Notes: generated by a model from the sequence alone, not told the origin. A DNA stretch of 64,000 nucleotides from Desulfobacterales bacterium (GCA_024226555.1 JAAELO010000754.1:41222-105221), one strand, 5' to 3'; shown: positions 525 through 61,976, counted from the stretch's first letter. Program-made: numbers and translations.

Positions 525-587
525 AAAAAAACTGTAAACTTTATAAACGCTGTATTTCAATCAACAATCTAATTATTAGAGGTTCCC
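525..587 (-). repeat. partial MITE-like repeat (right-hand module plus TIR AATTATTAGAGGTTCCC)
   Basis: aaactgtaaactttataaacgctgtatttcaatcaacaatctaattattagaggttccc is near-identical to segments at 7496-7596, 34081-34165 and 48541-48604. Confidence 0.7.
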
Positions 588-2351
588 ATAAGGTAGATAT
601 ATACTAACTGTAGTCCCTTCATTCTCATTACTAATATATGTAATCTCTCCATCATGGGATTCAATTATATTATGAACAATTGCAAGACCAATACCCGTAC
701 CAGATGATTTAGTAGTATAGTAAGGATCAAAAATGTGTGACAGGTCTTTCTCTTTTATACCACAACCAGTATCCCTTATTTTTATTACCACACCTTTTTT
801 TGAACTTTTCTCAATAAGATCAACAGAAAGTTGTCCGTTCTCTTCCATCGATTCAATAGAGTTAATAAAAATATTAAGGTATACCTGACTCATTCTGTCG
901 GTATCTATCATAACATTCTGCATCTCGGATTTAACATTAAATGAAATCCCAATATTTTTAGCAGCAGCCTGCATCTCAATCAGTTTTAGAGAATCCTCTG
1001 TAAAACCTTTAATATTAATGTTTTTTTTCTCTATGGAAACAGGTTTTGCAAATTCAAGAAGTTGACCAACAACTCTGTTTAATCTCTCAGTTTCCTGGAT
1101 CATAATTCTTGCCGTTTCTTTATCTTCAGGAATATCTTTATATTTTTCCATAAAGTATGTTGCAAAACCTTTTACGGAACTTAGAGGGTTTCTTATTTCA
1201 TGGGCTACACCGGCTGCAAGACTTCCAACCGAAGCAAGTCGTTTACTCAGTTCAATCTCTTTTCTTAATTTATCAATCTCTCTCAAATCTTTTATTAATA
1301 AAATGTATCCGTGATTTTTTTCATTTTCCTGCATTAAGCTTGCAACGCTTACTTCAAGGGGTATAATAATTTCGTTAATATTACAAACTATCTCAGAATC
1401 AAGGATTTTTTCACCTTCACTGTCCAGTCTTTTAATTAGTTGATTAATCTCTGTTGGTAAAATATTAACATCCTCATTCAAATCTTTTATATCACCGAGG
1501 GAAAATAGAGATTCAGCCATTTGGTTAGATGCTACTATGTTTTTTTCATCATCAATATATAAAAGACCTATGGGCATATTATTAACAATGGTATCTGAAT
1601 ATGCTTTCATTTTTGTAAGAGATGCTTTTGTATTTCGATAATTCTGCATAACAAACAGTAATAAAATACCTGAGATCCCAACCAATAGTAATATAATTCC
1701 AATTATTATAGCCTGCTTTGTGTTGGCAGATCCGGCTTCAGTCGCTGAGCTCATATTCAAACCAACAAAAATAGTATAATCATTTGAATTTAAATTTATA
1801 TTTTTACCGATGTTTTCACCAAAGCACTGATACATCATTCTTCTTCTCATTTGGCCTCTTCCCAGACCCATTCCCCTTCCCCTGCCATGACCTTTACCTT
1901 TAAAGTGGTGATTGGAAGGAAGAAATTTACGATACACTTCAAATATTTTCTTATTGTTTTCAGACTCAACTATACGGTAATTTACTATATTTGGATTCAA
2001 ACCGGAGTGATGGTCATGTGTCTCTCCAATTCTTTCCTTATTACTATGGGATAGTATTTTTCCATTAAAGTCAGAAACGAGTAGATATTCAATATCCGGT
2101 TGTTTAGCTGTTTCTGTTAAAAGCCTTTGGAGTTGGTGGTTATTCCAGAATGTTCCCATCATACCTGTTCTGGTTCCTGCTTCAAAAGACCTTATTAAAG
2201 CAGCTCCTTTTTCAAGTAAAAGTTTTTCACTATTCTGTTTCTGGACCCATATGTTTCCCACTGTAATAAACCCAAATATTGGTAACATAACGAGAAATGC
2301 ACCAATAAGTATCCATGTTGGAATTTTTATGATCGATTCTTTTTTCTTCAT
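576..2351 (-). CDS. sensor histidine kinase, ZraS/HydH-like (periplasmic sensor, PAS, HisKA, HATPase)
   Basis: 591-aa ORF with an N-terminal TM segment. A second TM segment flanks a periplasmic domain carrying His/Gly/Arg-rich stretches (HDHHSG; NHHFKGKGHGRGRGMGLGRG). It has a PAS-like segment, the H-box LAAGVAHEIRNPLSSVKG, and G-boxes DTGCGI and GTGIGLAIV. It is paired with a downstream NtrC-class regulator. Confidence 0.8.
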   Translation of the reverse strand: MKKKESIIKIPTWILIGAFLVMLPIFGFITVGNIWVQKQNSEKLLLEKGAALIRSFEAGTRTGMMGTFWNNHQLQRLLTETAKQPDIEYLLVSDFNGKILSHSNKERIGETHDHHSGLNPNIVNYRIVESENNKKIFEVYRKFLPSNHHFKGKGHGRGRGMGLGRGQMRRRMMYQCFGENIGKNINLNSNDYTIFVGLNMSSATEAGSANTKQAIIIGIILLLVGISGILLLFVMQNYRNTKASLTKMKAYSDTIVNNMPIGLLYIDDEKNIVASNQMAESLFSLGDIKDLNEDVNILPTEINQLIKRLDSEGEKILDSEIVCNINEIIIPLEVSVASLMQENEKNHGYILLIKDLREIDKLRKEIELSKRLASVGSLAAGVAHEIRNPLSSVKGFATYFMEKYKDIPEDKETARIMIQETERLNRVVGQLLEFAKPVSIEKKNINIKGFTEDSLKLIEMQAAAKNIGISFNVKSEMQNVMIDTDRMSQVYLNIFINSIESMEENGQLSVDLIEKSSKKGVVIKIRDTGCGIKEKDLSHIFDPYYTTKSSGTGIGLAIVHNIIESHDGEITYISNENEGTTVSIYLPYGNL

Positions 2352-2364
2352 ATTATTTGATAGA

Positions 2365-2667: not shown

Positions 2668-2796
2668 GGGAACCTCTAATAATTAGAATTTTTGATGAAA
2701 TACAAGGCATTACAAAAAATAACGGACTGATTTTACAACAGTTTTTTTTGGGTAATAACGAAATATTTCGCAAAAAGAGCAGTTATTAGGGTTCCC
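2668..2796 (+). repeat. complete MITE-like repeat, module A type, located inside the 5'UTR of the zraP-like gene
   Basis: The left TIR GGGAACCTCTAATAATTAG is at 2668 and the right end CAGTTATTAGGGTTCCC is at 2780-2796. The interior is near-identical to 5491-5618, 43305-43431 and 52433-52551. Confidence 0.85.
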
Positions 2797-2814
2797 TTAA
2801 AAAGGGAGTTAATA

Positions 2815-3420: not shown

Positions 3421-3814
3421 AATCATCTATCTGTTCATAATCCTCATTACCTTCATAATATCTGGACAGATCAAACTCTTTTTCATATGTAATTCCCCAT
3501 TCCCTTAATTTTAGAAGTGCAGGCATAATTGTTTGACCAAAAGGAGTCAGAGAATACTCAACTTTTGGTGGAACCTGATTATACATTTTTCTCAAAACCA
3601 TATTATCCTTTTGAAGATCCTTTAGCTGTTGAGTAAGCATTTTTTCTGTGATATTGGGCATCTCTTTTTTCAATTCTCCATATCTGAGTATACCAGCTTT
3701 ACCAAGATGATATAGGATTATAGATTTCCATTTTCCACCTATTATCAGGAGAGCCAATTCAAAGTAACAGTGATATTTTTTGTCATGCATCTCTTTAATT
3801 TTACATTTTTTCAT
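3419..3814 (-). CDS. HxlR-family (DUF24) winged-helix transcriptional regulator
   Basis: 131 aa. MPNITEKMLTQQLKDLQKDNMVLRKMYNQVPPKVEYSLTPFGQ matches the HxlR recognition helix and wing. Confidence 0.8.
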   Translation of the reverse strand: MKKCKIKEMHDKKYHCYFELALLIIGGKWKSIILYHLGKAGILRYGELKKEMPNITEKMLTQQLKDLQKDNMVLRKMYNQVPPKVEYSLTPFGQTIMPALLKLREWGITYEKEFDLSRYYEGNEDYEQIDD

Positions 3815-4025
3815 TTTTTTTTCACCTTTTTATAACACTGATTAACATCATTATATACCAATAGGTATGTACCAGACATATTAGTGGGTACTTGATCTTA
3901 TGTTCGTTAAGTTTATCTTTATCATATCTTTTCTGACAGATCAACGCGCGAGATTTTCTGAAAAGTTATTAAGCTTTTGAAAATAAAAACAAAAACAGGC
4001 AACTAATAAAAAAAAGGAAACAAAA

Positions 4026-4574
4026 ATGAATGATATTTTAGAAGTAATTAAAAGCAGAAGAACAATACGTAAATACGAATCAAAGGTATTGGAGGCAGAG
4101 ATACTTACAAAAGTTTTAGAAGCAGTTCAGTATTCTCAATCATGGGGTAATAGTCAGTGTTGGGAGGTTGTGGTTATGGAGAATCCAGAGATCAGAAAAA
4201 AGATACAGGAAACAGTTCCTTCCAAAAATCCAAGCTACAGAGCTATTGTCGAATCATCTGTGCTTATTGCAATATGTGGAAAAAGCAAAACATCTGGTTT
4301 TTTCGGCGATGAACAAGGCTCTGCTCTAGGTGACTGGATGATGTACGATCTTGGGATTGCAACTCAAAACCTTTGCAATGAAGCTCATTAGTTGGGGTTA
4401 GGAACTTCTGTCGTTGGATGGTTTGATCAAACAAAAGCAAAAAAGATTATTAATGTTCCTGAGGGTTACGAACTGGTATCATTAATTCCCCTCGGATTTC
4501 CAGGACATAAAGGGAGCTCACCTGAGAGAAAAGAATTAAATGAATTTGTACATAGAGATACTTTTAGACAATAA
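4026..4574 (+). pseudogene. nitroreductase-family protein interrupted by a single in-frame TAG (4389-4391)
   Basis: The two ORFs 4026-4391 and 4392-4574 are in the same frame. The joined translation ...DLGIATQNLCNEAH*LGLGTSVVGWFD... is continuous with the nitroreductase core motif (AAHxLGLGxCxIGWFD). The N-terminus has the RRTIRKY FMN-site motif. Confidence 0.5.
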
Positions 4575-4619
4575 AATTTCGAATAAAAAATCACTTTTTT
4601 TTATCAAAAAGGGAATAAA

Positions 4620-5402
4620 ATGATGAAAACAAAATATTTATATTTTTCAATAATTATGATCACTTTACTATCAGGTTTTTTTACAATCACACTTGCATCG
4701 GAACTTAAAGTTACGGAAAGTTTCAAAGCAAAACCCCTGGTTCCAATAATTAATACCGCTTATCTTTTAGATAACAATCCTTCACTTAAAGCTTTTCTAA
4801 TGGCAAAGGTTAAAAAGAGTGAAATGATAAAAGGAAAACGTATTGCAATTCTTGCAACAGATGGGGTTGAAGAACTTGAATTAACTTCTTTCCTGAATTA
4901 CCTAAAAGCAAGAGGCGGTATTGTTGAAGTTATATCTACTAAATATTCTCCCTGGCCTGATCAATATGGAGTACAATATCCTGTTAGTAGAAGAGAGTAC
5001 ATCCAAACTGTCAGATTTATGCATAATGCAGGTTTGATAAAAATTGATCGTTTTATAACTGATGTTAAAGCTTCTGATTATGATGCTGTTATTATCCCAG
5101 GTGGGGCCTGGAGTCCTGATTTTCTGAGGAATAATAAAAATGTACTTACTTTTGTACAAGAGATGAATGATACAAAGAAACCTATCGCTTCGATTTGTCA
5201 TGGTCCATGGGTATTAATTAATGCGAAAGTTGTTAAGGGGCGTAAAATGACAGCATCCTGGAATATTTTTGAAGATCTGAAAAATGCTGGAGCAATTGTT
5301 AAAAACAAGGCATTGGTAGTTGACGGCAATATTATGACCAGTCGTTACCCCACTGACCTTGCTCAAATAATCTCTGAAACAGTGCGCCAGATAAAAAAAT
5401 AA
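4620..5402 (+). CDS. DJ-1/PfpI-family (class I glutamine amidotransferase-like) protein with N-terminal signal/TM segment
   Basis: KRIAILATDGVEELEL...ASICHGPWVL (nucleophile-elbow Cys)...VVDGNIMTSRYPTDL. A hydrophobic N-terminus precedes the domain. Confidence 0.75.
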   Translation: MMKTKYLYFSIIMITLLSGFFTITLASELKVTESFKAKPLVPIINTAYLLDNNPSLKAFLMAKVKKSEMIKGKRIAILATDGVEELELTSFLNYLKARGGIVEVISTKYSPWPDQYGVQYPVSRREYIQTVRFMHNAGLIKIDRFITDVKASDYDAVIIPGGAWSPDFLRNNKNVLTFVQEMNDTKKPIASICHGPWVLINAKVVKGRKMTASWNIFEDLKNAGAIVKNKALVVDGNIMTSRYPTDLAQIISETVRQIKK

Positions 5403-5490: not shown

Positions 5491-5618
5491 GGGAACCTCT
5501 AATAATTAAAATTTTGGATGAAATATAAGGCATTTCAAAAAATAACGAGCCGATTTTATTACAGTTTTTTTTGGAAATAACAAAGTATTTCGCCAAAAGA
5601 GAGGTTATTAGAGATTCT
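5491..5618 (+). repeat. complete MITE-like repeat, module A type
   Basis: GGGAACCTCTAATAATTAAAATTTTGGATGAAATATAAGGCATTTCAAAAAATAACGAGCCGATTTTATTACAG...GAGGTTATTAGAGATTC. Confidence 0.85.
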
Positions 5619-5627
5619 CAATAACTG

Positions 5628-7417: not shown

Positions 7418-7621
7418 AGGGAACCTCTTAGGCTTTCATTTATCACTGTATATTTAAGGATGAATGCTTCGCATAACACAGAGTTTTACGAAAAAAGAAC
7501 TGTAAACTTTATAAAATTAAAGCTTTTTATAAACGAATCCCGTTATTTTTTGTTATGCCTTGTTTTTCATCAAAAATTCTAATTATTAGAGATTCCCATA
7601 ATCTAATTATTTGAGATTCCC
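7418..7621 (-). repeat. composite/nested repeat copies in inverted orientation (two AATTATT-GAGATTCCC ends at 7580-7596 and 7604-7620)
   Basis: GGGAACCTCTTAGG at 7418, then ...gaaaaaagaactgtaaactttataaaattaaagctttttataaacg...cgttattttttgttatgccttgtttttcatcaaaaattctaattattagagattccc, plus an extra terminal fragment. Confidence 0.75.
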
Positions 7622-8260: not shown

Positions 8261-8275
8261 GGGAACCTCAAATAA
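8261..8275 (+). repeat. solo TIR fragment (GGGAACCTCAAATAA)
   Basis: An isolated match to the left TIR between the divergent AhpD-like and LysR genes. Confidence 0.45.
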
Positions 8276-8335
8276 ATTTTATTAACAAAAATACATCTGA
8301 ATATGATATAAGTAAAATCAATTAAATGAATAATA

Positions 8336-9244: not shown

Positions 9245-9270
9245 AGCACATCTATCTTTAAACTATCAAA

Positions 9271-9342
9271 AATTCTAATAATTAAGATTCCCATAAGGTA
9301 AATTTATAAAAAGATATCTACTGTAAATTATTAGAGGTTTCC
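9271..9342 (-). repeat. short repeat remnant with two TIR-like ends (AATTCTAATAATTAAGATTCCC; AATTATTAGAGGTTTCC)
   Basis: Both TIR-like motifs occur within 72 bp between LysR and the macro-domain gene. Confidence 0.6.
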
Positions 9343-9347: not shown

Positions 9348-10526
9348 TTAACTGTATTCACCAATTACTTCTATCACGCCCACGATATTACTATTCAACC
9401 CATCAAGATCTTCTGCCGGAATCCACCATTCAATATGATTTTGACCACCAACTTGTTGAATCTTATAGTTATCCATAAACTCTTTCTTTACTTCAAATCT
9501 TGTTACATAGCCAACTTTACTGTCCCGGATATTCCACTTCACAGCAATTTCTTTGGCATACTCCTCATTGGTAACAGGGTAGAAAATGGGTTGCTCCTTT
9601 AAACGCTCAGGCCATTTTCTATATCCACTTTCTTCTACAAGTTTGAGCTCATTCGGTCCTGTAGGCCTGTATAATGTTATAGTTTTCATGTTCATTTCTT
9701 TTAATTTTAACCCGAACTTTTCCAAAAAAGCATTGTGAATGTTCTGATTATTAGTTTTTATAGCAAATACGATTTTCTTAAATCTGTTTTTAAAAGTCTC
9801 ATTTAGCATAATCTGTTCAAACCATGATTCAGCAATTTCAACAGGATTATTCTTAAATACTCCACAACCCCAGGCACCCAAAATAAGAACATCACTATCA
9901 TTGTGAGCTGCTACAGCAAGTACATTACCCATGCGATTCAACATTGTTGATTTAATGCTCTTAACTTTATTTCTCTCATTTTTTGCAACTGCTCCTGCAT
10001 TAACAGCAGGTGCGGTGATAAAAGAGGTCTGAAAATTTTCTATAAGATTATCATCTTCATCTCTGAAAACAGGTGATTCCGGTGTATATATTAAATAATC
10101 TGAATACAGTGAAGTTCTGCAATTCCTATTATATTCATAATATTCCATATTCTCTATAAGTGATAAATACAGCCCCGAAGATCTTGCTAAAACCTCCTCC
10201 TGTGCCTGGCTACCACCTATAAAGCCACCACCCGGATTTTTTGCTGATGCAAAGTTCAAACAGGTAACATTCTTATAATCTTTTGCAACTCTATGTGCGG
10301 CCTCAAGTGTAGACTCATTAGTGACTTCAATTTCAGTTTCATTTATTTCAGTTTTTAAGTCGTTTATTACATCTCTAAAATCATCTGGTTTATAAAGCAT
10401 TGTGTTCTCAACACTACTTTTCAATATTTCACTAATATCAATTTTCAATTCATTTTTATAATAGAAACCATCTTCAAGTATTTGTAAGGTTTTCTGTGCT
10501 ATATCTGCTCTTTGCTTTCTGTTCAT
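9348..10526 (-). CDS. macro-domain-like (TIGR02452/DUF2263, PARG-related) protein fused to an unrecognised ~130-aa C-terminal domain
   Basis: 392 aa. LNFASAKNPGGGFIGGSQAQEEVLARSSGLY and VLILGAWGCGVFKN match the DUF2263 macro-like signature. The C-terminal 130 residues (TITLYRPTGPNELKLVEESGYRKWP...IFYPV...HIEWWIPAEDL) match no family I can name. Confidence 0.55.
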   Translation of the reverse strand: MNRKQRADIAQKTLQILEDGFYYKNELKIDISEILKSSVENTMLYKPDDFRDVINDLKTEINETEIEVTNESTLEAAHRVAKDYKNVTCLNFASAKNPGGGFIGGSQAQEEVLARSSGLYLSLIENMEYYEYNRNCRTSLYSDYLIYTPESPVFRDEDDNLIENFQTSFITAPAVNAGAVAKNERNKVKSIKSTMLNRMGNVLAVAAHNDSDVLILGAWGCGVFKNNPVEIAESWFEQIMLNETFKNRFKKIVFAIKTNNQNIHNAFLEKFGLKLKEMNMKTITLYRPTGPNELKLVEESGYRKWPERLKEQPIFYPVTNEEYAKEIAVKWNIRDSKVGYVTRFEVKKEFMDNYKIQQVGGQNHIEWWIPAEDLDGLNSNIVGVIEVIGEYS

Positions 10527-13059: not shown

Positions 13060-13204
13060 GCCAGTATAGAAAACATGACAAACTATATATGGGCTTGACA
13101 GACAACATACATCGGAACTGATTTGGGACGTCCGTGACATAGATTCTAATAGTCTTTTCATCCAAGCCAATGTTACTTACAAAATACCCTCGCGCCCAAA
13201 AGGG

Positions 13205-13270
13205 TTTTATTACAGTTTTTTTTGGAAAAAACGCAGTATTTCGTCAAAAGATCAGTTATTAGAGATTCCC
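13205..13270 (+). repeat. partial repeat (right half of module A, ending CAGTTATTAGAGATTCCC)
   Basis: ttttattacagttttttttggaaaaaacgcagtatttcgtcaaaagatcagttattagagattcccc. Confidence 0.7.
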
Positions 13271-20284: not shown

Positions 20285-20446
20285 GGGAACCTCTAATAAT
20301 TAGAATTTTTGATGAAAAATAGCGTTTATAAAAGCTTTTAGTTTTATAAAATCTCTGTATAACAAAAAACAACGGGTTGATTTTACTACAGTTTTATTTT
20401 TGTTATAACGCTGTGTTTCGTAAAAAGAGCAGTTATTAGAGATTCC
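20285..20446 (+). repeat. complete MITE-like repeat, module B+A type (162 bp)
   Basis: GGGAACCTCTAATAATTAGAATTTTTGATGAAAAATAGCGTTTATAAAAGCTTTTAGTTTTATAAAATCTCTG...AGCAGTTATTAGAGATTCCC, lying between the signalling operon and the EPS locus. Confidence 0.85.
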
Positions 20447-20608
20447 CTAATAATAATTAGGATGTGCAATTAACATGCCGTATTTATTATATGTATTTTA
20501 TTTTATAACTGCAAATATAATATTTTGTATTTTAATACAGATTGGCCCCGCAATTGCAAAATAAACATAATCAAAGTCATAAGATTATCGCAAAATAAGG
20601 AGTTAATA

Positions 20609-32835: not shown

Positions 32836-34062
32836 ATGAGTAAGAATAAACGAAACATAGCATATATAGCACCAGAAATCCCGGCTCTTTCAGCAACATT
32901 TGTATATAATGAAATTGCATCAATGGAGGAACTTGGACATAAGGTTACCCCTCTGTCGGTTCATAAACCACAGGTAAAAGCATCCGATCCTGTTTCAAAG
33001 GAACTTGAAAAAAAGATGATCCGGATCTATGGAAGAGGTTTTCTCTTTTACCTTTTTTTTAACCTTACAGCCTTTATCAGAAACCCTTATCTATATCTTA
33101 AGGCTTTGCTTTACATGTTAAAAGATATTTCAAAATTAAAGATATCCAGGCTTTCAGCTGGTATCTTATACAGATTCATTGTTGCTTCATGGGTTTCAAC
33201 GATTCTGAGAAGGAAAAAGACAGACCATATCCATATACATTTTGCTCATGTCCCTTGTGATATTGGAATGTATGCATCTCTTCTTTCAGGGATACCTTTT
33301 AGTTTTACTTCTCACGCAAATGATATCTTTGAAAGAGGATGGCTGCTTAAACAAAAAGTAGACCGCTCAAAATTTGCAGTTACAATATCTGATCACAACA
33401 GAAAATATATTGAAAGAGTTTACTCCCCCACAAAAGAGATAGAGGTTCTGCATTGTGGTGTGAATACAGTGGAGATTAAAACAAAACCAAAAAACCCAAT
33501 TGGTAAGGTGTTGAAAATTGGTTCACTGGGACGATTTGTTGAAAAAAAAGGGTTTGATACTCTTGTTAAAACAGCACTTGAACTTAAAAAAAACGGGGTT
33601 GAATTCACAATGGAAATTGCTGGTGATGGCCCATATTATAAAGAAATATACATACTGATATCGAAACTTAAACTAACCTCCAACGTTTTTCTAACAGGAA
33701 AAATCTCACATAACAAAGTTGCAGATTTTCTAAGCAACCTTGATATTTTTATTCTTCCCTGCAAAAAAGATTCAAGAGGTGACATGGATGGAATTCCCGT
33801 TGTTTTAATGGAAGCTATGCTATGTGGTACACCAGTTATTTCAACCAATATTTCAGGGATCCCGGAGCTTATCAAAAATGGTAAAACAGGTATATGTATT
33901 TCCCCGGATTCCCCAGATGAAGCAGCGCAGGCAATATTAAAAATATCTTCAGACAATAAATTCAGAAATAACATTGTCAGGAACAGCCTTAAAAAAATAA
34001 AAAGCGATTTTAATCAAATGGCTAATACAAAAAGATTATCAAAACTTATAAACGACTTTTAA
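32836..34062 (+). CDS. glycosyltransferase family 4
   Basis: The GT-B C-terminal domain carries MEAMLCGTPVISTNISGIPELI. Confidence 0.8.
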   Translation: MSKNKRNIAYIAPEIPALSATFVYNEIASMEELGHKVTPLSVHKPQVKASDPVSKELEKKMIRIYGRGFLFYLFFNLTAFIRNPYLYLKALLYMLKDISKLKISRLSAGILYRFIVASWVSTILRRKKTDHIHIHFAHVPCDIGMYASLLSGIPFSFTSHANDIFERGWLLKQKVDRSKFAVTISDHNRKYIERVYSPTKEIEVLHCGVNTVEIKTKPKNPIGKVLKIGSLGRFVEKKGFDTLVKTALELKKNGVEFTMEIAGDGPYYKEIYILISKLKLTSNVFLTGKISHNKVADFLSNLDIFILPCKKDSRGDMDGIPVVLMEAMLCGTPVISTNISGIPELIKNGKTGICISPDSPDEAAQAILKISSDNKFRNNIVRNSLKKIKSDFNQMANTKRLSKLINDF

Positions 34063-34080
34063 CTGAACTACTTCGTTATT

Positions 34081-34165
34081 ACGAAAAAAGAACTGTTGTA
34101 AAATCACCCGTTATTTTTTCTAATGCCTTGTATTTCAATCAAAATTCAATTTATTAGAGGTTCCT
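34081..34165 (-). repeat. partial repeat in inverted orientation inside the EPS locus
   Basis: acgaaaaaagaactgttgtaaaatcacccgttattttttctaatgccttgtatttcaatcaaaattcaatttattagaggttcc. Confidence 0.7.
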
Positions 34166-39726: not shown

Positions 39727-39855
39727 TGGGAGCCTCTAATTATTGGATTTTTGACTGAAATACAACGTTTATAAAAGCTTTTAGTTTTATAAAATCTCTG
39801 CATGAGAAAAAAACAACGCAGTATTTCGGTCAAAAGGCAGTTAGCAGAGATTCCC
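39727..39855 (+). repeat. complete repeat, module B type, diverged TIRs (GGGAGCCTCTAATTATTGG ... CAGTTAGCAGAGATTCCC)
   Basis: The interior is ...cgtttataaaagcttttagttttataaaatctctgcatgagaaaaaaacaacgcagtatttcggtcaaaaggcag... Confidence 0.75.
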
Positions 39856-43296: not shown

Positions 43297-43304
43297 ATAC
43301 CTTT

Positions 43305-43431
43305 GGGAACCTCTAATAATTAAAATTTTGGATGAAATACAAGGCATTTCCAAAAATAACGAGCCGATTTTATTACAGTTTTTTTTGGAAATAACAAAGG
43401 ATTTCGCCAAAAGAGGTTATTAGAGATTCCC
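43305..43431 (+). repeat. complete repeat, module A type; first of a tandem trio
   Basis: GGGAACCTCTAATAATTAAAATTTTGGATGAAATACAAGGCATTTCCAAAAATAACGAGCCG...GAGGTTATTAGAGATTCCC. Confidence 0.85.
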
Positions 43432-43472: not shown

Positions 43473-43586
43473 AATACAGCGTTTATAAAAGCTTGAGATT
43501 TATAAAGTCTCTGTTTGAGAAAAAAATAACGAACCAATTTGTTTATAAAAAGCCTTTTGTTTTATAGGCAGTTATTAGAGATTCCC
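43473..43586 (+). repeat. partial repeat, module B type (no left TIR), second of trio
   Basis: aaaatacagcgtttataaaagcttgagatttataaagtctctgtttgagaaaaaaataacgaaccaatttgtttataaaaagccttttgttttataggcagttattagagattcccc. Confidence 0.75.
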
Positions 43587-43692
43587 CAATATATTTCTTT
43601 ACAGAGCAAGCTAATCTATATATTATTATGAGTTAAAAATATAATAGATGTTTTATCGATATTCGCATTCCGTTATATTCCAGTAACATATG

Positions 43693-43818
43693 ATAACCTC
43701 TAATAATTAGAGTTTTGATTGAAATACGTGACATGACGTTTATAAAAAGCTTTCAATTTTATAAAATCTTCAAGGAAATGACATACATTTTTATAGGTCA
43801 TTTTTTTTGATAACCAGT
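43693..43818 (+). repeat. degenerate repeat copy, third of trio (ATAACCTCTAATAATTAGAGTTTTGATTGAAATACG ... TTGATAACCAGTGC)
   Basis: The left TIR is nearly intact, and the right end has decayed. Confidence 0.55.
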
Positions 43819-44951: not shown

Positions 44952-46160
44952 ATGAAAATTTTACATTTACTGAGCCAGAGACCAGAGCAAACAGGTTCCG
45001 GGGTTTTTGTTCGTGAAATAATAAAAGAAGCCTATAAAAAAGGGCATGACAATTGTCTTTTATGTGGTATTCCCAGTCACAAGGGAACTGATTTGAAAGA
45101 GTTGAATTTATCATCTGTGGTATTCGTTAAATTTGAAAGTGAGAAACTTCCTTTTCCTGTTCCTGGTATGAGCGACGTAATGCCTTATAAAAATACTGTT
45201 TTTGGTACGATGGATGAAGGAAAATTAAGTAGCTATTATAAAGCATTTGAGGAAAAAATAACCACTGCTGTAGAGTCATTTAAACCTGATGTAATTTTGT
45301 CGCACCACCTTTTTATTATGACAGCTATAGCAAAAAAACTATATCCTGAAATACCTCTTGGTGTTATTAGTCATGGAACAGATATAAGACAATACAAAAA
45401 TTGTGATATGGTTAGAGACTTTGTAAAAAAATATTGTAGTAAAGTGGATGCGGCTCTTGCATTAACAAAATCACATGGAGATGAGATTAAAGATCTTTTT
45501 GGAATGACTGAAAATAAGATATTCATATGCGGAAGTGGGATTAATAGTAATATTTTTAACTACTCACAAAAAGAAAATCCTTCTCCTGTTAAAATTCTTT
45601 ATGCTGGAAAGATTGCAAGAGCAAAAGGTGTTCCATGGCTTCTTAAATCACTTTCAAATGTTGAAAATGATTTTGAGTTAGATCTTGTGGGAAGTGGAAC
45701 AGAAGATGAAGAAAATGTTTGCTTTGAGTTAGCGAAGCAATTAGAAAACAAGGTTACTATCCATGGGAAGGTAGAACAGAAAGTTTTATCTGTTTTAATG
45801 AAAAAAGCCCACATTTTTGTTTTCCCATCTTTTTTTGAAGGGCTTCCACTGGTACTTTTAGAAGCACTTGCAAGTGGAACCAGAGTTGTTACTACCTCCT
45901 TAAAAGGAACAAGAGAACTGTTCAAGAAGCCTTCAAAGTATGTTGATGTTATTGATATCCCAACTTTGGAAACGATTGATTCTCCTTTTAAGAAAGATGA
46001 AATTTTACTTGAGAAGTGTTTAACAAACTCAATTTCCAGTCAGATAAAGAAGGCCATGAAAGAAAAAGATGTTCCCATTTCAGAGATTGATCCAATAACT
46101 TCAAATTATACCTGGGAAAAGGTTTTTAAAAGGATTGAGATAGCTTTGGGGAACCTCTGA
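44952..46160 (+). CDS. glycosyltransferase family 4-like (GT-B)
   Basis: The C-terminal domain has FVFPSFFEGLPLVLLEALASGTRVVTT (E-x7-E region). The stop codon lies inside a repeat element. Confidence 0.7.
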   Translation: MKILHLLSQRPEQTGSGVFVREIIKEAYKKGHDNCLLCGIPSHKGTDLKELNLSSVVFVKFESEKLPFPVPGMSDVMPYKNTVFGTMDEGKLSSYYKAFEEKITTAVESFKPDVILSHHLFIMTAIAKKLYPEIPLGVISHGTDIRQYKNCDMVRDFVKKYCSKVDAALALTKSHGDEIKDLFGMTENKIFICGSGINSNIFNYSQKENPSPVKILYAGKIARAKGVPWLLKSLSNVENDFELDLVGSGTEDEENVCFELAKQLENKVTIHGKVEQKVLSVLMKKAHIFVFPSFFEGLPLVLLEALASGTRVVTTSLKGTRELFKKPSKYVDVIDIPTLETIDSPFKKDEILLEKCLTNSISSQIKKAMKEKDVPISEIDPITSNYTWEKVFKRIEIALGNL

Positions 46161-46390
46161 TTGAATTTTGATTGAAATGCAGATTATAAAAGCTTTCAGT
46201 TTTATAAAATCTCTGCATTAGAAAAAATAATGAACCGGTTCGTTTATAAAAAGCTTTTATTTTATAGACATTACAACAGTTTTTTTTTGTAATAATTCTG
46301 TTGTTCTGTTTTTTTGAACAACTTAAGTTGTTCGATTAAAACAAACAAAACTAAAGCCTTTTGTTTTATAGGCGGTTGTTAGAGGTTCCC
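46148..46390 (+). repeat. long complete repeat (243 bp, multiple B-type modules); left TIR overlaps the stop codon of the upstream glycosyltransferase
   Basis: GGGAACCTCTGATTGAATTTTGATTGAAATGCAGATTATAAAAGCTTTCAGTTTTATAAAATCTCTGCAT...AACGAACCGGTTCGTT...GGCGGTTGTTAGAGGTTCCC. The TGA at 46158-46160 lies within the TIR. Confidence 0.8.
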
Positions 46391-46414
46391 TAAAATAAAG
46401 AAAGAGGCATTAGT

Positions 46415-48510: not shown

Positions 48511-48527
48511 TGGTAATTTTTTTCCCA

Positions 48528-48604
48528 TGCAGAGATTTTATAAAACTAAAAGCTTTTATAAACGCTGTATTTCAATAATAATACTAATTATTAGAGGTTT
48601 CCCT
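48528..48604 (-). repeat. partial repeat in inverted orientation (ends AATTATTAGAGGTTTCCC)
   Basis: tgcagagattttataaaactaaaagcttttataaacgctgtatttcaataataatactaattattagaggtttccc. Confidence 0.75.
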
Positions 48605-49059: not shown

Positions 49060-49123
49060 AAATCTATTTAATTCAAATATTATAACGTAATAACGTCAGG
49101 ATTTCAGTTAAAAAGCTGTTATT

Positions 49124-49143
49124 AAAGATTCCCTATTGTCTAA
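49124..49143 (+). repeat. solo right-TIR fragment (AGCTGTTATTAAAGATTCCC)
   Basis: An isolated TIR match upstream of the acyltransferase gene. Confidence 0.5.
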
Positions 49144-50102: not shown

Positions 50103-50166
50103 TTTTTTAAAGGAAAATCTGATAACTGCCTCTTGAACTAACTAACGAATTAATTCGGTCAAAAGA

Positions 50167-50356
50167 CAGTTATTTGAGATTCACTTTAACAGCACATTTA
50201 TTGAACTACAAAAAATAGTGTTATCAGAGGGAATCTCTAATAATCCTTTTAATCGAACTACTGCATTTTCAACAAAAACAACTGCAGTAAAATCAACCCA
50301 TTGTTTTTTTCTTAGTCTTGTATTTCAATCAAAATTCTAATTATTAGAGGTTCCCT
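50167..50356 (-). repeat. repeat copy in inverted orientation with an extra degenerate TIR (CAGTTATTTGAGATTCAC at 50167; GGGAATCTCTAATAAT at 50229; AATTCTAATTATTAGAGGTTCCC at 50334-50356)
   Basis: ...cattgtttttttcttagtcttgtatttcaatcaaaattctaattattagaggttccc matches the copies at 7540-7596 and 34100-34165. Confidence 0.75.
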
Positions 50357-50414
50357 GAAATTATAAAGCTTAAAATATTTTAAAAAGGGCCTTTTTACAT
50401 GCCCCTTTTAAAAA

Positions 50415-52145: not shown

Positions 52146-52432
52146 GTTATTTATCCTTTTTAATTTCCTGTTTTAGGCTATATCTGTTGTCAATTATAGA
52201 GATTTAAGGAATTTATTTCTATTTTTTTGTTAATAATATCATGGAACCTCTAAAGTGGACAAATATTTGATTTCAAAATAGAAATAACAATTTATGCCTA
52301 CCTTCTGAAGTAATAATCAAAAATCAGAAGAATAGAAAGAATAGCCTGTACAGAGTAGTTCAATTTCAACATGCGATAGTTCATATAATAAGAAATAGCT
52401 TTCTTTCAGTCAAGTCATTTAAGGGAACCTCT

Positions 52433-52604
52433 AATAATTAGAATTTTGGATGAAATACAAGGCATTTCAAAAAATAACGAGCCGATTTTATTACAGTTTT
52501 TTTTGGAAATAACAATGTATTTCGTCAAAAGAGAGGTTATTAGAGATTCCCTACAGTTTTATTTTTGTTATATCTGTGTTTCGCAAAAAGATCAGTTATT
52601 ACCC
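52433..52604 (+). repeat. complete module A repeat (52433-52551) followed directly by a partial second copy (52552-52604, ending CAGTTATTACCC)
   Basis: GGGAACCTCTAATAATTAGAATTTTGGATGAAATACAAGGCATTTCAAAAAATAACGAGCCGATTTTATTACAG...GAGGTTATTAGAGATTCCC, then acagttttatttttgttatatctgtgtttcgcaaaaagatcagttattaccc. Confidence 0.85.
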
Positions 52605-52748
52605 TTGATATATTTGATTTTAAAGTAATTAATACTTTTCTTCTGTTTTTTTGATATTGAATATTTATAATATTTTATATAAAATAAAGCATTGAGCATG
52701 AAATGAAACCTGATTCATTATTTAATACTGAAATTACAAATCCAAATT

Positions 52749-53220
52749 AGTTACTAAAGATTCCCTAAAGTGTTGTTTTAGAGATATTTTTATAATCATG
52801 TATAACTCTTTTAAATGGAGGATTATATGAAACAGGAAGTTCTGGATTACAACTTTGTACGTCACTGCCCCAATGAAGATCAAATTAAAAGGTATGATTC
52901 CATAAGGAGTCAAATTAAAAAAGCTGCAGAACTTATCAATAAAATTTGCCCTGAAGGGCGGGAAAAAGAGCAGGCAATTGTAAACATCGAACAGGCGATG
53001 TTCTGGGCAAATGCATCTATTGCCCGTGAAGATTCCTGTTAGTTATTTTATTTAGAGGTTCCTTAGTATTTTTTTTGGAACAGGCGAAATTCATTTTTGT
53101 TGTACATCAGAAATATTCTGATTTCGCATTTCTCTGAATCTTTACCAAACATTATAAATGATAATAGATGTAAAATACCTACTGCCATAAAATATAACAA
53201 ATTTTAAAATAGAGATTCCC
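52749..53220. repeat. three solo TIR fragments (52749-52765 AGTTACTAAAGATTCCC; 53051-53063 TTTAGAGGTTCC; 53211-53220 AGAGATTCCC) scattered in an AT-rich gap
   Basis: Short matches to the TIR core, with no interior modules. Confidence 0.4.
52815..53042 (+). CDS. small hypothetical protein
   Basis: 75 aa ORF with a plausible GGAGGA RBS (52807-52812) in an AT-rich, repeat-littered gap. Confidence 0.3.
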   Translation: MEDYMKQEVLDYNFVRHCPNEDQIKRYDSIRSQIKKAAELINKICPEGREKEQAIVNIEQAMFWANASIAREDSC

Positions 53221-53559
53221 AAAAACATTTCTGATTCATATCTGTCTCGCTAAATTATCTATAAATAGTATATGTTGAATGATTAATTATTTGAAAACTG
53301 TAATAATAAACTACTAAATTTCTAACATTCATATTTTTATTCATGGTATAAAATTATGACAGTTTATTGTTTTTTTGAGAAAATATGATATACTGACATA
53401 GTATTTTTGCCAGTCAAATTCTAAGGCATGCATTAAGGTCTTCACCAATAAAATTTTATTTTTAATTTTTAAAAACAGTAAATCTATTGATGCTTTTAAA
53501 ATTTAAACCTGCATCTGGTGTATTATGTTCCGATTCAGGGTTATTAAAGGAAATTAAAT

Positions 53560-54564
53560 ATGAAAAAAAAGGCGCTGATACTTGGAGCAGGAGGACCTCT
53601 TGGCGGACTTGAAGCCGGAGCTTTGTTAGCACTTGATGAAAAAGGGGTTAAATTTGATATTATTTCAGGGGCATGTATTGGTTCAATAATCGGTCTTGCT
53701 TATTCAAGCCCGGCAAATGGTATGACAGGTCCCGAAGCAGTGGAAAAATGGTGTAATGCATCTGGTTTATCGGATCAGATTTACTACAATTTCTGTGAAT
53801 CAAATTATAAGGTTTTCCAAAAGAATGCAGGTCCTTTAAATGAGATTTCAGATAATTTCCTTAAAAACATGACTGAAGCAAATCCTTTCTATACTATAGA
53901 TCCAAAAAATGAAATCAGTAGATATTACAACGATATGTATCTATACTGGTTAACGTTATGTACACCTTCTTTGGAGTGGCCAACCAAGACATCAATAAGC
54001 AGAATAGCTCCATTTCTCGATAATTTCATAGATTTTGAAAATATAAAAAATATCGAGAAAGATGTATACATCAATGCACTTAACATAACTGACAAAAAAA
54101 TAGAGATATTTGGTAAAGATAAGATAACTATGTCACATATTATCGCAGGTTCATCTCTGTTTTTCATTTGTCCCCAGCAAAAAATTGATGGAAAATTGTA
54201 TGGAGAAGGGTCATATCTTGACTGTCTAAATTATGAAGGGCTTATAGGAAAAGATGAAGATATCGATACAATTGTTGTAATGAACATTATGAATAAAGAA
54301 GCATTAATAAGAGAACCACGAAATACTTATGATGCTTATAATCTTTCTATAATGCTACCATTTGTAACAATTGCTGCAGATGATACTAAATTATTTGAAG
54401 CAAAACATCTCAAACACAGAACATTACTTAAGGTTCCATTCCACATTCCGGATGAGATAGCTCCAAATGTAATGGACTGGAGTGCTTCAAACTTTAAGAA
54501 ACTCCGTGATATAGGCTATGAAGAGGGCTTAAAATTTTATCAGCAAAATAAAAGTAAACTATAG
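53560..54564 (+). CDS. patatin-like phospholipase-fold protein with Cys at the nucleophile position (G-x-C-x-G)
   Basis: ALILGAGGPLGGLEAGALLALDE...DIISGACIGSIIGLAYSS aligns to the patatin oxyanion loop plus nucleophile elbow. GACIG replaces G-x-S-x-G, Leu replaces the oxyanion-hole Arg, and the later IDGKLYGEG stands in place of the DGG/A Asp motif. Confidence 0.65.
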   Translation: MKKKALILGAGGPLGGLEAGALLALDEKGVKFDIISGACIGSIIGLAYSSPANGMTGPEAVEKWCNASGLSDQIYYNFCESNYKVFQKNAGPLNEISDNFLKNMTEANPFYTIDPKNEISRYYNDMYLYWLTLCTPSLEWPTKTSISRIAPFLDNFIDFENIKNIEKDVYINALNITDKKIEIFGKDKITMSHIIAGSSLFFICPQQKIDGKLYGEGSYLDCLNYEGLIGKDEDIDTIVVMNIMNKEALIREPRNTYDAYNLSIMLPFVTIAADDTKLFEAKHLKHRTLLKVPFHIPDEIAPNVMDWSASNFKKLRDIGYEEGLKFYQQNKSKL

Positions 54565-59347: not shown

Positions 59348-61650
59348 TTTTTATTAATAATCTCTCCAAAAACATTAAAAATTTCCTCAAAAGAATATGG
59401 TTTTGGAATAACACCACTAAAACCATAATCACTGTAATTAGCCATTACAGGGTCATTTGAATATCCACTTGAAACAACAGACTTCACCTTAGGATCTATT
59501 TTCAGCAACTCCGTTATGGCTTCCTTTCCTCCCATTCCACCAGGAACTGTCAGGTCCATCATTACCAGATCAAAAGGATCTCCATCTTCAATTGACTCTT
59601 TATACATTTCAACGGCCTCTCTTCCATCCATCGCAAAATATGGCTCGTATCCAATTCTAACAAGTATTCGTTCGAGCATTTTAAGAAGAATTTCCTCATC
59701 ATCCATTATTAGAACCTTACCTTTCTTCATATTAACATCCTGGACAGATTTTTTTAAAATTAAAGGAATCTCTTTATCTGTTGCTTTCAGATAAATTATA
59801 AAAGTTGCACCATAATTTTTCTTTGAAATAACTTCTATTTTACCATGATGCTTTTCAACTATTGAATATGCGGTTGCAAGGCCTAACCCACTACCTTTTT
59901 TCTTTGTTGAATAATAAGGCTCAAATATTTTTTGATGATCATTTTCATTTATACCTGTTCCATGATCTGTTATCGATATCTTTATATAATCGCCTTTTTT
60001 AAGAAATTCTTTTTTAAAAGCGGCTAAATTTTCTATTCGGATATTTATATCACCACCCTTAGGCATAGCCTGGATAGAATTAATAACAAGATTACAAATA
60101 ACCTGATGGAGCTGACCTTCGTCTACTTCAGATCTCCACAAATTCTCCTGTATATCATAATGACAAAGCGTTTTTGATCCTCTGGTAACAAATTTTGATG
60201 CCTCAGTAACGATCTTGTCAACAGCACATACTGTTTTAACTGGGGTTCCCCCCTTTGAAAATGTAAGGAGTTGTTGTGTTAGACTTTGAGCTTGTATTGT
60301 TCCTTCCATCATATCTTTCAATATTGAGTGAATTTCATTTTCATGGTCAAATTTATTAAACAGATAAGAGATATTTCCCGTAATAACTCCCAGAATATTA
60401 TTAAAATCATGGGCAATTCCACCAGCAAGTGTCCCAATTGCATCCATCTTTTCAGAATGTTGCAGTTGAACTTCAAACTTCTTTCTATCAGTTATATCGC
60501 GGAGAATTGCTATGACCTCATTGTTACTAAACCTGTTAATACTTCCTTCATAGTATCTTTTGCCACATCCAGATAAATCAAGATCATATTCAAGATGCTC
60601 TACTTTATTACTTTCCAAGGCATCACAAACACACTTTATAATTTTATCAGCAATATCATCGGGCAAAATATCTTTAATATTTTTATCATTCAAGTTCTTA
60701 TCAAACTGACCTGAATTATCTGCTTTAAAATCCAGTATCAAACCTTCTCTTGTCATTATAAGCATAAGGTCAGGAATAGCGTTTAGAAGGGCTCTCGATT
60801 TTGCTTCACTTCTTTTTAATTTAACATCCCCACTTCTCTTCTTATTAAGATTTATGGAATAGCTTATAATTTGTCCACCAGTACCTGTAATCCCACCAAC
60901 AAGAACAGGTATTTTCGATCCATCTTTTCTGGTATACTCCTTTTCAAATGAAGTACAAAACCCCTTTTCTTTAACCTCTTTGATTTTCTTAAGTATTAAA
61001 TCATAATATTCCGTAGTCGTGATTTTTTCCCAACTTAATTTACCTTCTCTAAGATCTTCTCTGCTATAGCCAACTATTTCAAGAAATTTATCATTAGCAG
61101 ATACGACAGCACCTTTTGTTTCCCAGATTGCCATACCAAACATATTTGATTCAACTACTCTTCGAAATCTCTCCTCACTCTCTTTTAAACTTCTCTCCTT
61201 TTTTTTCTCCTCAGATAGATCCATCAGTATAGTTACCCTAACATTTTTTCCCATGTACTCAACACTATTAGGTCTTACCTCTACCTCAAATCTTTCCCCA
61301 CCTTTTCTCAATCCAATGACTTCATAATTTTCTATATTCCCATCAATGATTTTATTTTTTGCCTTTTTTATGGAGGTTTTATCAATTGTCAGTGCTAATG
61401 CATCTTCTCCTGATAACTCTTCTGGTGTGTATCCAAACATTTCATAATATTTATTATTTGCATATAAAATTCTGCCATCTTTGTGTAAAACAATAGCTTC
61501 ATAAAACATATTTAATAAAAAATGAAAATCCATATCAATTTTATTAATTTTTCTATATAACTCTTTTCTTTCTGGAGTTAAATCTCCATTTACTAATTCC
61601 CGAAGTAATAGAACCTCTTTTTCTAAATCTTCATAAGTTGGTTTATTCAT
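59344..61650 (-). CDS. multi-PAS hybrid histidine kinase with C-terminal receiver
   Basis: It has three PAS/PAC-like modules, the H-box LAGGIAHDFNNILGVITG, HATPase motifs DHGTGI and GSGLGLA, and a receiver with VLIMDDEEIL...LVMMDLTVPGGMGG. Confidence 0.85.
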   Translation of the reverse strand: MNKPTYEDLEKEVLLLRELVNGDLTPERKELYRKINKIDMDFHFLLNMFYEAIVLHKDGRILYANNKYYEMFGYTPEELSGEDALALTIDKTSIKKAKNKIIDGNIENYEVIGLRKGGERFEVEVRPNSVEYMGKNVRVTILMDLSEEKKKERSLKESEERFRRVVESNMFGMAIWETKGAVVSANDKFLEIVGYSREDLREGKLSWEKITTTEYYDLILKKIKEVKEKGFCTSFEKEYTRKDGSKIPVLVGGITGTGGQIISYSINLNKKRSGDVKLKRSEAKSRALLNAIPDLMLIMTREGLILDFKADNSGQFDKNLNDKNIKDILPDDIADKIIKCVCDALESNKVEHLEYDLDLSGCGKRYYEGSINRFSNNEVIAILRDITDRKKFEVQLQHSEKMDAIGTLAGGIAHDFNNILGVITGNISYLFNKFDHENEIHSILKDMMEGTIQAQSLTQQLLTFSKGGTPVKTVCAVDKIVTEASKFVTRGSKTLCHYDIQENLWRSEVDEGQLHQVICNLVINSIQAMPKGGDINIRIENLAAFKKEFLKKGDYIKISITDHGTGINENDHQKIFEPYYSTKKKGSGLGLATAYSIVEKHHGKIEVISKKNYGATFIIYLKATDKEIPLILKKSVQDVNMKKGKVLIMDDEEILLKMLERILVRIGYEPYFAMDGREAVEMYKESIEDGDPFDLVMMDLTVPGGMGGKEAITELLKIDPKVKSVVSSGYSNDPVMANYSDYGFSGVIPKPYSFEEIFNVFGEIINKN

Positions 61651-61787
61651 TTTATAGTCCTGATAAGGAAGTTTTTTTAGTATAATCTAATGATTTCATA
61701 AGCGAATTAGTTTCAGGTTGTGAACGATTAATTATGATATAATTATAACATTATTATTTCAAGGATTAAAAACATAATATTACCTAT

Positions 61788-61976
61788 AGGGAACCTATAA
61801 TAATAGATATTTTTGATACAATACAGATTATAAAAGCTTTTAGTTTTATAAAATCTCTATCTAACAAAAAATAACGAACTGGTTCGTTTATAAAAAACTT
61901 TAATTTATAAACATTACAGCAGTTTATTTTTGATATAACGAAGTATTTCAGATAAAGATCAGTTTTAAGAGATTCC
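61788..61976 (+). repeat. complete repeat, module B type (189 bp)
   Basis: GGGAACCTATAATAATAGATATTTTTGATACAATACAGATTATAAAAGCTTTTAGTTTTATAAAATCTCTATC...AACGAACTGGTTCGTT...GATCAGTTTTAAGAGATTCCC. Confidence 0.8.

What the first reader, a model, noticed from the sequence alone, without database searches (positions are those of the whole stretch)
525..61976. Very dense, modular MITE-like repeat family with 17-bp terminal inverted repeats occupying nearly every intergenic gap
At least 20 full, partial or solo copies occur in 64 kb, in both orientations. Each is bounded by GGGAACCTCTAATAATT on the left and AATTATTAGAG(A/G)TTCCC on the right, a near-perfect inverted repeat, so a transcript would form a long panhandle stem. 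Interiors are built from reusable modules. Module A (...GAAATACAAGGCATTTCAAAAAATAACG...CAGTTTTTTTTGG...TATTTCG...) has A-run/T-run internal pairing. Module B (...CGTTTATAAAAGCTTTTAGTTTTATAAAATCTCTG...) carries two perfect palindromes, TAAAAGCTTTTA and AACGAACCGGTTCGTT. Copies range from solo TIRs (about 15-20 bp) through 128-bp units to a 243-bp multi-module copy, and tandem arrays occur at 43305-43818 and 52433-52604. No transposase or IS with matching ends is in the window, so the elements look non-autonomous (Correia/ERIC/RUP-like in architecture). I do not recognise the sequence as a named family. The density (about one per 3 kb) and the conserved palindromic sub-sites suggest the elements may have been co-opted, for example as protein-binding sites, RNA processing sites or UTR structures, rather than being inert.
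Basis: seen in the sequence. Interest (0 to 1): 0.75.

Follow-up and report, generated by a model that had tools for sequence, protein, structure and literature searches.

The report
Dense new bacterial MITE family
The repeats are real: a previously unnamed family of small, hairpin-forming, transposase-less "jumping" DNA elements (MITEs) fills about a quarter of the intergenic DNA of an uncultured sulfate-reducer-type bacterium. This is a known kind of selfish element, present here at unusually high density.

Summary
The 17-nt terminus occurs 21 times against 0.01 expected. Nineteen element loci cover 3.9% of the window and 24% of its intergenic DNA.

The elements are 127-247 nt long. Their inverted ends are about 40 nt and imperfect, not 17 nt. 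Their interiors carry variable hairpin modules.

I could show that they are mobile DNA. Twelve of 28 complete copies are flanked by a perfect 4-bp duplication, against 1.2 expected (P = 5e-10). A sister species with about 91% nucleotide identity has empty or filled sites at exactly the element ends. One empty site lies in the window itself: AATA at 53163-53166 carries a 130-nt copy in the relative.

The same family occurs in unrelated gene contexts on 15 contigs of another metagenome. It is absent from 316 kb of other taxa.

I found no transposase in the roughly 87 kb of this genome that I read, so the autonomous partner is unknown. No Rfam family, plasmid sequence or paper matches the elements.

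Orthologous copies diverge like ordinary intergenic DNA, so nothing supports co-option. Two genes do borrow their last codons and stop codon from the element end.

Verdict: a new member of a known kind (MITE), notable mainly for its density.

The parts
444..587 (-). Complete 144-nt copy flanked by ATAA/ATAA. Its left end supplies the last codons (G-N-L) and the stop of the histidine-kinase gene 576-2351(-).
2668..2797 (+). Complete 130-nt copy. It ends 18 nt upstream of the ATG at 2815.
5491..5619 (+). Complete 129-nt copy flanked by AATA/AATA, 97% identical to the copy at 52423.
7475..7597 (-). Copy lacking its right end, followed by a solo left end at 7605-7621(-).
8261..8277 (+). Solo terminus-like sequence (2 mismatches).
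9265..9342 (-). Two left-end fragments (9265-9292 and 9326-9342).
13203..13270 (+). Right half only.
20285..20447 (+). Complete 163-nt copy with hairpin module B, flanked by TAAT/TAAT.
34058..34165 (-). Copy filling the whole gap between two glycosyltransferase genes. Its right terminus is missing at the upstream stop codon, and its left end lies 17 nt from the ATG at 34182.
39728..39855 (+). Complete 128-nt copy with module B. It is absent at the orthologous site of the sister species (L042).
43305..43431 (+). Complete 127-nt copy, the first unit of an array.
43473..43586 (+). Copy lacking its left terminus, the second unit of the array.
43692..43769 (+). Left arm plus module B with the right part missing, the third unit of the array.
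46149..46395 (+). 247-nt multi-module copy. The same site in the sister species holds a 128-nt copy (L040 321-448). Its left end supplies G-N-L-stop of the gene 44952-46160.
48518..48602 (-). Left arm plus module B. The sister species has the complete 186-nt copy (L040 2832-3017, TATA/TATA) plus 361 nt that are deleted here.
49084..49133 (+). Right-arm fragment, conserved in the sister species.
50135..50189 (+). Degenerate right-arm fragment.
50229..50355 (-). Complete 127-nt copy. The window stretch 50103-50355 that contains it has no counterpart in the sister species' short gap (L041).
52423..52606 (+). Complete 129-nt copy plus a partial right half. The whole block is absent in the sister species: empty CAT-TTAA-TATATTTG, filled TTAA[...]TTGA.
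52733..52767 (+). Right-end-like fragment.
53163..53166 (.). Empty target site AATA. The sister species carries a 130-nt copy exactly here, flanked by AATA/AATA (L041 2828-2957).
61789..61977 (+). Complete 189-nt copy with two hairpin modules, flanked by TATA/TGTA.

Best explanation
[quoted passage not shown] They are non-coding DNA transposons of 127-247 bp with imperfect terminal inverted repeats of about 40 bp (left GGGAACCTCTAATAATTAGAATTTTGATTGAAATAC; right ...GTAGTTCGATCAAAAGGCAGTTATTAGAGATTCCC). The interior consists of an A-run/T-run stem plus zero to several copies of a ~30-nt AT-rich hairpin unit (GTTTATAAAAAGCTTTTAnTTTTATA). Shown here: they insert into AT-rich intergenic DNA and duplicate exactly 4 bp of target, and insertions differ between sister species. 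Inferred: they are moved in trans by a DDE-type transposase that makes 4-bp staggered cuts and is encoded elsewhere in the genome or now lost. From my memory of the ISfinder family tables, a 4-bp duplication with ends starting GG fits the IS5 group, IS701 or ISAzo13. It does not fit IS630 (TA), Tn3 (5 bp), or IS1/IS6/IS256/ISL3/IS1595 (8-9 bp). After insertion, copies decay by truncation and by deletions that end inside elements. Module content can also differ between orthologous copies. Effects on the host look incidental. Copies sit within 6-20 nt of start or stop codons, so they would put long hairpins into untranslated or intercistronic RNA, and two genes use the element end as their last three codons and stop.
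For: **Copies and structure**
- The terminus occurs 21 times against 0.01 expected.
- There are 19 loci on both strands, intergenic apart from three copies that overlap a gene's last 12-18 nt.
- An alignment of 16 full copies gives the consensus and the ~40-nt inverted ends.
- The consensus fold is one long hairpin of 36 pairs. Single copies fold with z-scores of -3.5 to -8.4, apart from one strand of the 61789 copy at -1.7.

**Evidence of transposition**
- 12 of 28 complete copies have a perfect 4-bp flanking duplication, against 1.2 expected (P = 5e-10). There is no signal at 2, 3, 5 or 6 bp, or when the boundaries are shifted.
- The sister species GCA_024449855.1 (about 91% identity) differs at exactly the element ends. 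Window 52423-52606 and 39728-39855 are absent there. Window 53163-53166 (AATA) is empty where the relative has a 130-nt copy flanked by AATA/AATA.

**Distribution**
- The same family lies in unrelated gene contexts on 15 contigs of metagenome JQIA01.
- Seven more copies lie in 23 kb of additional sequence from the second MAG.
- The hairpin unit occurs only inside elements.
- The profile is typical of MITEs as reviewed in PMC10969869: under 500 bp, AT-rich, intergenic, with decaying direct repeats and many truncated copies.
Against: - No autonomous element or transposase was found in the window, in the 23 kb of extra sequence from the second MAG, or in about 50 kb of metagenome contigs.
- Two strains at 99.8% identity show no insertion difference over the ~55 kb compared, so current activity may be low.
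- 16 of 28 copies lack a perfect duplication. Six of those match 3 of 4 bases.
- The orthologous copy at 46149 differs from its counterpart by four module-sized indels. Simple transposition does not explain that.
Confidence: 0.88

Rival explanations
1. The elements arose by transposition but have been domesticated. On this view their hairpins act as RNA-level regulators (processing sites, stabilisers, attenuators, translation modulators) or as protein-binding sites, and this explains their density and retention.
For: Several copies lie 17-20 nt upstream of start codons or fill gaps between genes that are probably co-transcribed (2668, 34058, 39728, 46149). Some copies persist at orthologous sites across about 9% divergence. 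The left-to-right strand folds more stably in 8 of 9 copies because of conserved G-U pairs. Two genes take their C-terminus and stop codon from the element.
Against: Orthologous element columns evolve like other intergenic DNA, 88.9% against 88.5% identity, though only 288 columns were available. Copies occur in both orientations relative to neighbouring genes. Insertions are gained or lost between sister species without other visible change. There is no Rfam match, no conserved IHF-type site, and promoter-like sites in the scanned stretch are no more frequent than in shuffles. The strand asymmetry could equally be inherited from a master copy.
Confidence: 0.1
2. They are REP/REPIN-like palindromic elements spread by a RAYT (IS200/IS605-type, single-strand) transposase rather than classical TIR transposons.
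For: The density is very high, the copies are intergenic, each element forms a hairpin, and solo ends occur that resemble REP singlets.
Against: RAYT/IS200-type transposition makes no target duplication, whereas these copies have an exact 4-bp duplication and clean empty sites. The elements are 127-247 nt with 40-nt ends, not 20-40-nt GC-rich REPs. No Y1-transposase gene was seen in the DNA examined.
Confidence: 0.02

Closest known systems
Correia elements (NEMIS/CREE) of Neisseria
   Same: Both are short (100-200 bp), non-coding, TIR-bounded and hairpin-forming. Both are dense in intergenic DNA, often co-transcribed with neighbours, and have no transposase partner in the genome. Correia was the first prokaryotic MITE, with more than 120 copies per genome (PMC10969869).
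   Different: From my own knowledge, Correia has 26-bp TIRs of unrelated sequence, a TA duplication and an IHF site. Here the duplication is 4 bp, the consensus has no IHF-type site, and the host is a Desulfobacterales lineage.
BOX elements of Streptococcus pneumoniae
   Same: Both have a modular build, with conserved end modules that pair and a variable number of internal modules. Copies cluster and abut one another (for the clustering; the boxA-boxB(n)-boxC structure is from my own knowledge).
   Different: No sequence comparison with BOX was made here. The modules in this family are AT-rich hairpins nested inside a classical TIR/TSD transposon.
Chunjie (Geobacter uraniireducens) and QMITE2 (Coxiella burnetii)
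   Same: These are MITE families with size variants (178-235 bp; about 190 bp), a minority of full-length copies and many truncated copies that have lost TIRs or direct repeats. Chunjie is the nearest described host lineage, a former deltaproteobacterium.
   Different: Their copy numbers are tens per genome (38 + 57; 78). Here there are about 26 loci in 87 kb. I did not compare their sequences with this family.
ERIC/IRU of enterobacteria
   Same: Both are ~127-nt imperfect palindromes, intergenic, and able to reach high copy number (711 in Photorhabdus luminescens).
   Different: Even that record is about one per 8 kb. The local density here is about one per 3.3 kb. The hosts are unrelated, and I did not compare sequences.
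REP/BIME/REPIN with RAYT transposases
   Same: Both show very high intergenic density, mosaic or modular arrays and hairpins.
   Different: REPs are shorter, carry no TIR/TSD signature and depend on Y1 transposases. Here the 4-bp duplication is exact.

Membership tests
MITE (non-autonomous TIR DNA transposon) | Terminal inverted repeats | tested here: met
   A 15-17-nt near-perfect core extends imperfectly to about 40 nt. Columns 1-17 pair with the last 17 in 16 of 16 copies.
MITE (non-autonomous TIR DNA transposon) | Target-site duplication of fixed length | tested here: met
   Exactly 4 bp: 12 of 28 perfect against 1.2 expected, P = 5e-10, with none at 5 or 6 bp or at shifted boundaries.
MITE (non-autonomous TIR DNA transposon) | Small size and no coding capacity | tested here: met
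   127-247 nt. The left end contains stop codons on both strands by direct reading of its sequence; the ORF lists were not checked for reading frames within elements.
MITE (non-autonomous TIR DNA transposon) | Many dispersed copies in unrelated contexts | tested here: met
   19 loci in the window, 7 more in 23 kb of the second MAG, and 15 metagenome contigs.
MITE (non-autonomous TIR DNA transposon) | Presence/absence polymorphism with intact empty sites | tested here: met
   Three sites differ between the window and sister species GCA_024449855.1, including the AATA site at 53163-53166.
MITE (non-autonomous TIR DNA transposon) | An autonomous IS with the same ends that supplies the transposase | tested here: inconclusive
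   None was found in about 87 kb of this genome or about 50 kb of metagenome contigs. Whole genomes could not be scanned.
IS5-group-derived MITE | 4-bp duplication and ends beginning GG/GA (ISfinder table, from memory) | tested here: met
   4-bp TSD and GGGAAC termini. These features are not exclusive to the IS5 group.
IS5-group-derived MITE | YTAR target and a DDE_Tnp_1 transposase with matching TIRs | tested here: not met
   The observed duplications (TAAT, TATG, TCAA, TCTT, TATA, AATA, TGTA, ATAA) are mostly not YTAR. No transposase is available to test.
REP/REPIN-RAYT | No target duplication; short GC-rich palindromes; RAYT gene | tested here: not met
   An exact 4-bp duplication and clean empty sites are present. 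The elements are AT-rich and 127-247 nt. No Y1 transposase was seen.
Correia element | TA duplication, 26-bp Correia TIR, IHF site | tested here: not met
   The duplication is 4 bp. The IHF consensus is absent from the family consensus and present in only 2 of 16 copies. The Correia TIR sequence itself was not compared here.
Any curated RNA family (Rfam 15) | Match at the gathering score | tested here: not met
   No hit in the whole window. At E <= 1 over 43250-46450 there was one hit well below threshold (25.7 bits against a gathering score of 43), which starts at the 3' edge of the truncated copy at 43692-43769.

The most novel reading that the evidence does not exclude
If the local density (3.9% of all DNA, 24% of intergenic DNA, about one locus per 3.3 kb) holds genome-wide, this would be among the densest single MITE families reported in any prokaryote. 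It might also be more than junk in two ways. Copies next to start codons and between co-transcribed genes could act as RNA hairpin regulators. The module-level differences between orthologous copies (128 against 247 nt at one site) could reflect an active process of hairpin gain or loss. The mobilising enzyme could also belong to an undescribed transposase group, since none lies nearby.
Probability: 0.12. Interest if true: 0.55.

Novelty: new member of a known kind. Interest (0 to 1): 0.3.

Why it matters
The finding adds a well-defined MITE family from an uncultured Desulfobacterales lineage, with consensus sequence, ends, 4-bp target duplication and proof of mobility. Its local density is at or above the top of what a 2024 review lists for prokaryotes. 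Practically, such repeats break metagenome assemblies: several JQIA01 contigs start or end in a copy. They also create gene-end variants (proteins ending G-N-L) and sit at ends of deletions, such as the 361-nt deletion at 48511-48515. Annotators should mask them. The family would become biologically important only if genome-wide counts confirm the density, or if transcript data show that the hairpins affect neighbouring genes.

Tried and rejected
- **Reference genomes, protein anchor.** I used the flotillin-like gene 50415-52145 as an anchor. The best relative is only 59% identical (Chloroflexota, Spirochaetota, Desulfonema magnum). None of those 21 loci (316 kb) has the repeat. This lineage therefore has no close representative in that collection.
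- **Viral contigs.** No match.
- **Plasmid collection, blastn.** No match.
- **Literature.** Full-text searches for the terminus sequence and for the assembly accessions found nothing.
- **Possible source.** A foraminifera-associated Desulfobacteraceae study (PMC9231491) looked like a candidate, but its supplements are not held, so the link is unverified.
- **Strain-level polymorphism.** The second MAG (99.8% identity) has the same copies over the ~55 kb compared.
- **Hunt for a transposase.** I checked the window ORFs, about 23 kb of additional flanking sequence from the second MAG, and unannotated ORFs lying between element copies. None was found.
- **Hairpin modules as independent mobile units.** Rejected, because the unit occurs only inside elements.
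- **Promoter, IHF and Rfam readings.** No support.


Full report

Yes. The proposed terminus GGGAACCTCTAATAATT, allowing two mismatches, occurs 21 times on both strands. Dinucleotide-preserving shuffles give 0.01.

Repeat finding and a profile search recover several classes of copy:
- four near-identical ~128-nt copies (2668, 5491, 43305, 52423);
- longer copies (20285, 163 nt; 61789, 189 nt; 46149, 247 nt);
- half copies and solo ends.

A BLAST of 26 complete copies against the window merges into 19 genuine loci. They cover about 2.3 kb, which is 24% of intergenic bases and 3.9% of the window. About 17 of the 27 gaps of 100 nt or more hold a copy, so 'nearly every gap' is too strong.

- The real right end is (C/G)AGTTATTAGAGATTCCC.
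- The inverted repeat continues imperfectly to about 40 nt.
- One of the two 'perfect palindromes' is not present exactly.

**2. Context**

The window is 32% G+C, with no tRNA and no Rfam hit. Its genes encode histidine kinases, response regulators and a polysaccharide-synthesis cluster. None is a transposase.

Exact protein look-ups place the window on a 105-kb contig of an NCBI MAG labelled 'Desulfobacterales bacterium' (locus tags GY714_). A second MAG, GCA_024224625.1, is 99.8% identical. A third assembly, GCA_024449855.1, holds a sister species with about 91% nucleotide identity.

**3. Anatomy**

Sixteen full copies align to this consensus:

GGGAACCTCTAATAATTAGAATTTTGATTGAAATACAAGGCAT...AAAAAATAACG...CGATTTTAC.ACAGTTTTTTTT...AATAACGAAGTAGTTCGATCAAAAGGCAGTTATTAGAGATTCCC

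The two ends are imperfect inverted repeats of about 40 nt. The interior has an A-run/T-run stem. The whole unit folds into one long hairpin of 36 consensus pairs, with few compensatory changes because the arms are conserved. Single copies fold with z-scores of -3.5 to -8.4, apart from one strand of the 61789 copy at -1.7.

Longer copies carry one to several copies of a ~30-nt AT-rich hairpin unit, GTTTATAAAAAGCTTTTAnTTTTATA. The unit occurs only inside elements.

**4. Proof of mobility**

I collected 28 complete copies from the window, the second MAG, the sister species and the metagenome contigs. Twelve are flanked by a perfect 4-bp direct repeat: TAAT, TATG, TCAA, TCTT, TATA, AATA, TGTA, ATAA. 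Mismatched flank pairs give 1.2 expected (binomial P = 5e-10). There is no signal at 2, 3, 5 or 6 bp, or if the boundaries are moved by 1-2 nt.

Orthologous comparison with the sister species gives direct empty/filled pairs:
- Window 52423-52606 is missing there. The empty site reads CAT-TTAA-TATATTTG and the filled site reads TTAA[element]TTGA.
- Window 39728-39855 is missing there.
- The window carries an empty AATA at 53163-53166. At exactly that site the relative has a 130-nt copy flanked by AATA on both sides.

Other orthologous sites show decay or remodelling:
- The 247-nt copy at 46149 is a 128-nt copy in the relative. It shares the same diagnostic arm variants but differs by four module-sized indels.
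- The half copy at 48518-48602 is a complete 186-nt copy in the relative, and a 361-nt deletion in the window ends inside the element.

The two 99.8%-identical strains show no insertion differences over the ~55 kb compared.

**5. Distribution**

An exact 25-mer of the left end hits 15 contigs of one metagenome (JQIA01). Their gene contexts are unrelated to the window, and their G+C is 33-39%. Seven more copies lie in 23 kb of additional sequence from the second MAG, giving roughly one locus per 3.3 kb overall.

The family is absent from 316 kb around homologues of a window gene in Chloroflexota, Spirochaetota and Desulfonema magnum. It is also absent from viral contigs and from the plasmid collection. 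The DNA scan of reference genomes was cut short, so the wider distribution remains open.

**6. Mechanism**

Shown:
- TIR-bounded, non-coding units that insert with an exact 4-bp duplication;
- insertion into AT-rich intergenic DNA or into the last codons of genes.

Inferred:
- mobilisation in trans by a DDE-type transposase encoded elsewhere.

From my memory of the ISfinder family tables, 4-bp duplications with GG-starting ends fit the IS5 group, IS701 or ISAzo13. They exclude IS630 (TA), Tn3 (5 bp) and the 8-9-bp families. The duplicated 4-mers are mostly not IS5's YTAR target. No partner was found in any sequence I could reach.

**7. Was it co-opted?**

I found no support for this.
- Orthologous element columns are 88.9% identical and other intergenic columns 88.5%. 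Third codon positions are 83.5% and first/second positions 96-97%.
- Copies lie in both orientations relative to genes.
- The 39000-53600 stretch has no more promoter-like sites than its shuffles.
- An IHF-type site is not a family feature.
- No Rfam family matches even at E <= 1.

Incidental effects are visible. Copies end 17-20 nt before four start codons. The genes 576-2351(-) and 44952-46160(+) both end ...G-N-L-stop, encoded by GGG AAC CTC TAA/TGA of the left end.

**8. Comparison and novelty**

The profile matches the general description of prokaryotic MITEs: under 500 bp, AT-rich, intergenic, with decaying direct repeats and many truncated copies (PMC10969869).
- It resembles Correia in lifestyle, but not in duplication length or in having a conserved IHF-type site.
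- It resembles BOX in modularity.
- It resembles Chunjie and QMITE2 in size heterogeneity.
- It differs from REP/REPIN in having an exact target duplication.

I found no named family with this sequence. I therefore rate it a new member of a known kind. The density stands out. The review's highest cited count is 711 ERIC copies in Photorhabdus luminescens, about one per 8 kb. That comparison needs a whole-genome count before it means much.

Noticed in passing
window 52827-53042 (+): A stand-alone 71-aa gene matches the Pfam Acb2/Tad1 hairpin domain (E = 2e-17). That domain is known from phage anti-CBASS/anti-Thoeris nucleotide sponges. Here the gene is chromosomal, sits upstream of a patatin-like phospholipase gene (53560-54564), and is conserved in all three assemblies.
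   Followed up: partly
window 10611/10612: The window joins sequences that lie on two different contigs of the 99.8%-identical MAG (contig 456 matches up to 10611 and contig 464 from 10612). This leaves a histidine-kinase gene truncated to its C-terminal 167 aa (10596-11099). It is either a real rearrangement or an assembly chimera. No repeat copy lies at the junction.
   Followed up: partly
window 3471-5164: The second MAG lacks these 1,694 bp (part of the HxlR gene, a truncated nitroreductase ORF and most of the DJ-1/PfpI gene). The junction shows a short microhomology (AGA). The deletion is not bounded by elements.
   Followed up: partly
window 12072-12305: A 234-nt in-frame segment of the response-regulator/kinase gene 11104-13059 is absent from the second MAG, with about 14 nt of overlap at the junction. 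It is not a tandem duplication within the window.
   Followed up: partly
window 4026-4391 (+): This nitroreductase-family ORF matches only positions 1-64 of the 167-position Pfam model. It is probably a truncated gene.
   Followed up: no
window 571-602 and 9276-9307: Two copies share the flank outside the left end as well as the left end itself (…ACCTTAT|GGGAA…, that is, the codons L-P-Y-G). This suggests that a kinase 3' end plus element was duplicated, or that some copies carry an extra outer module.
   Followed up: no
L042 1636-1740 (sister species), corresponding to window 41367-41373: A degenerate, terminus-less copy of the element is present in the sister species where the window has only 7 nt. 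This is another presence/absence difference, but its boundaries are unclear.
   Followed up: partly
window 9348-10526 (-): A 392-aa protein has a microbial-type poly(ADP-ribose) glycohydrolase domain in its first 156 residues and an uncharacterised C-terminal half.
   Followed up: no
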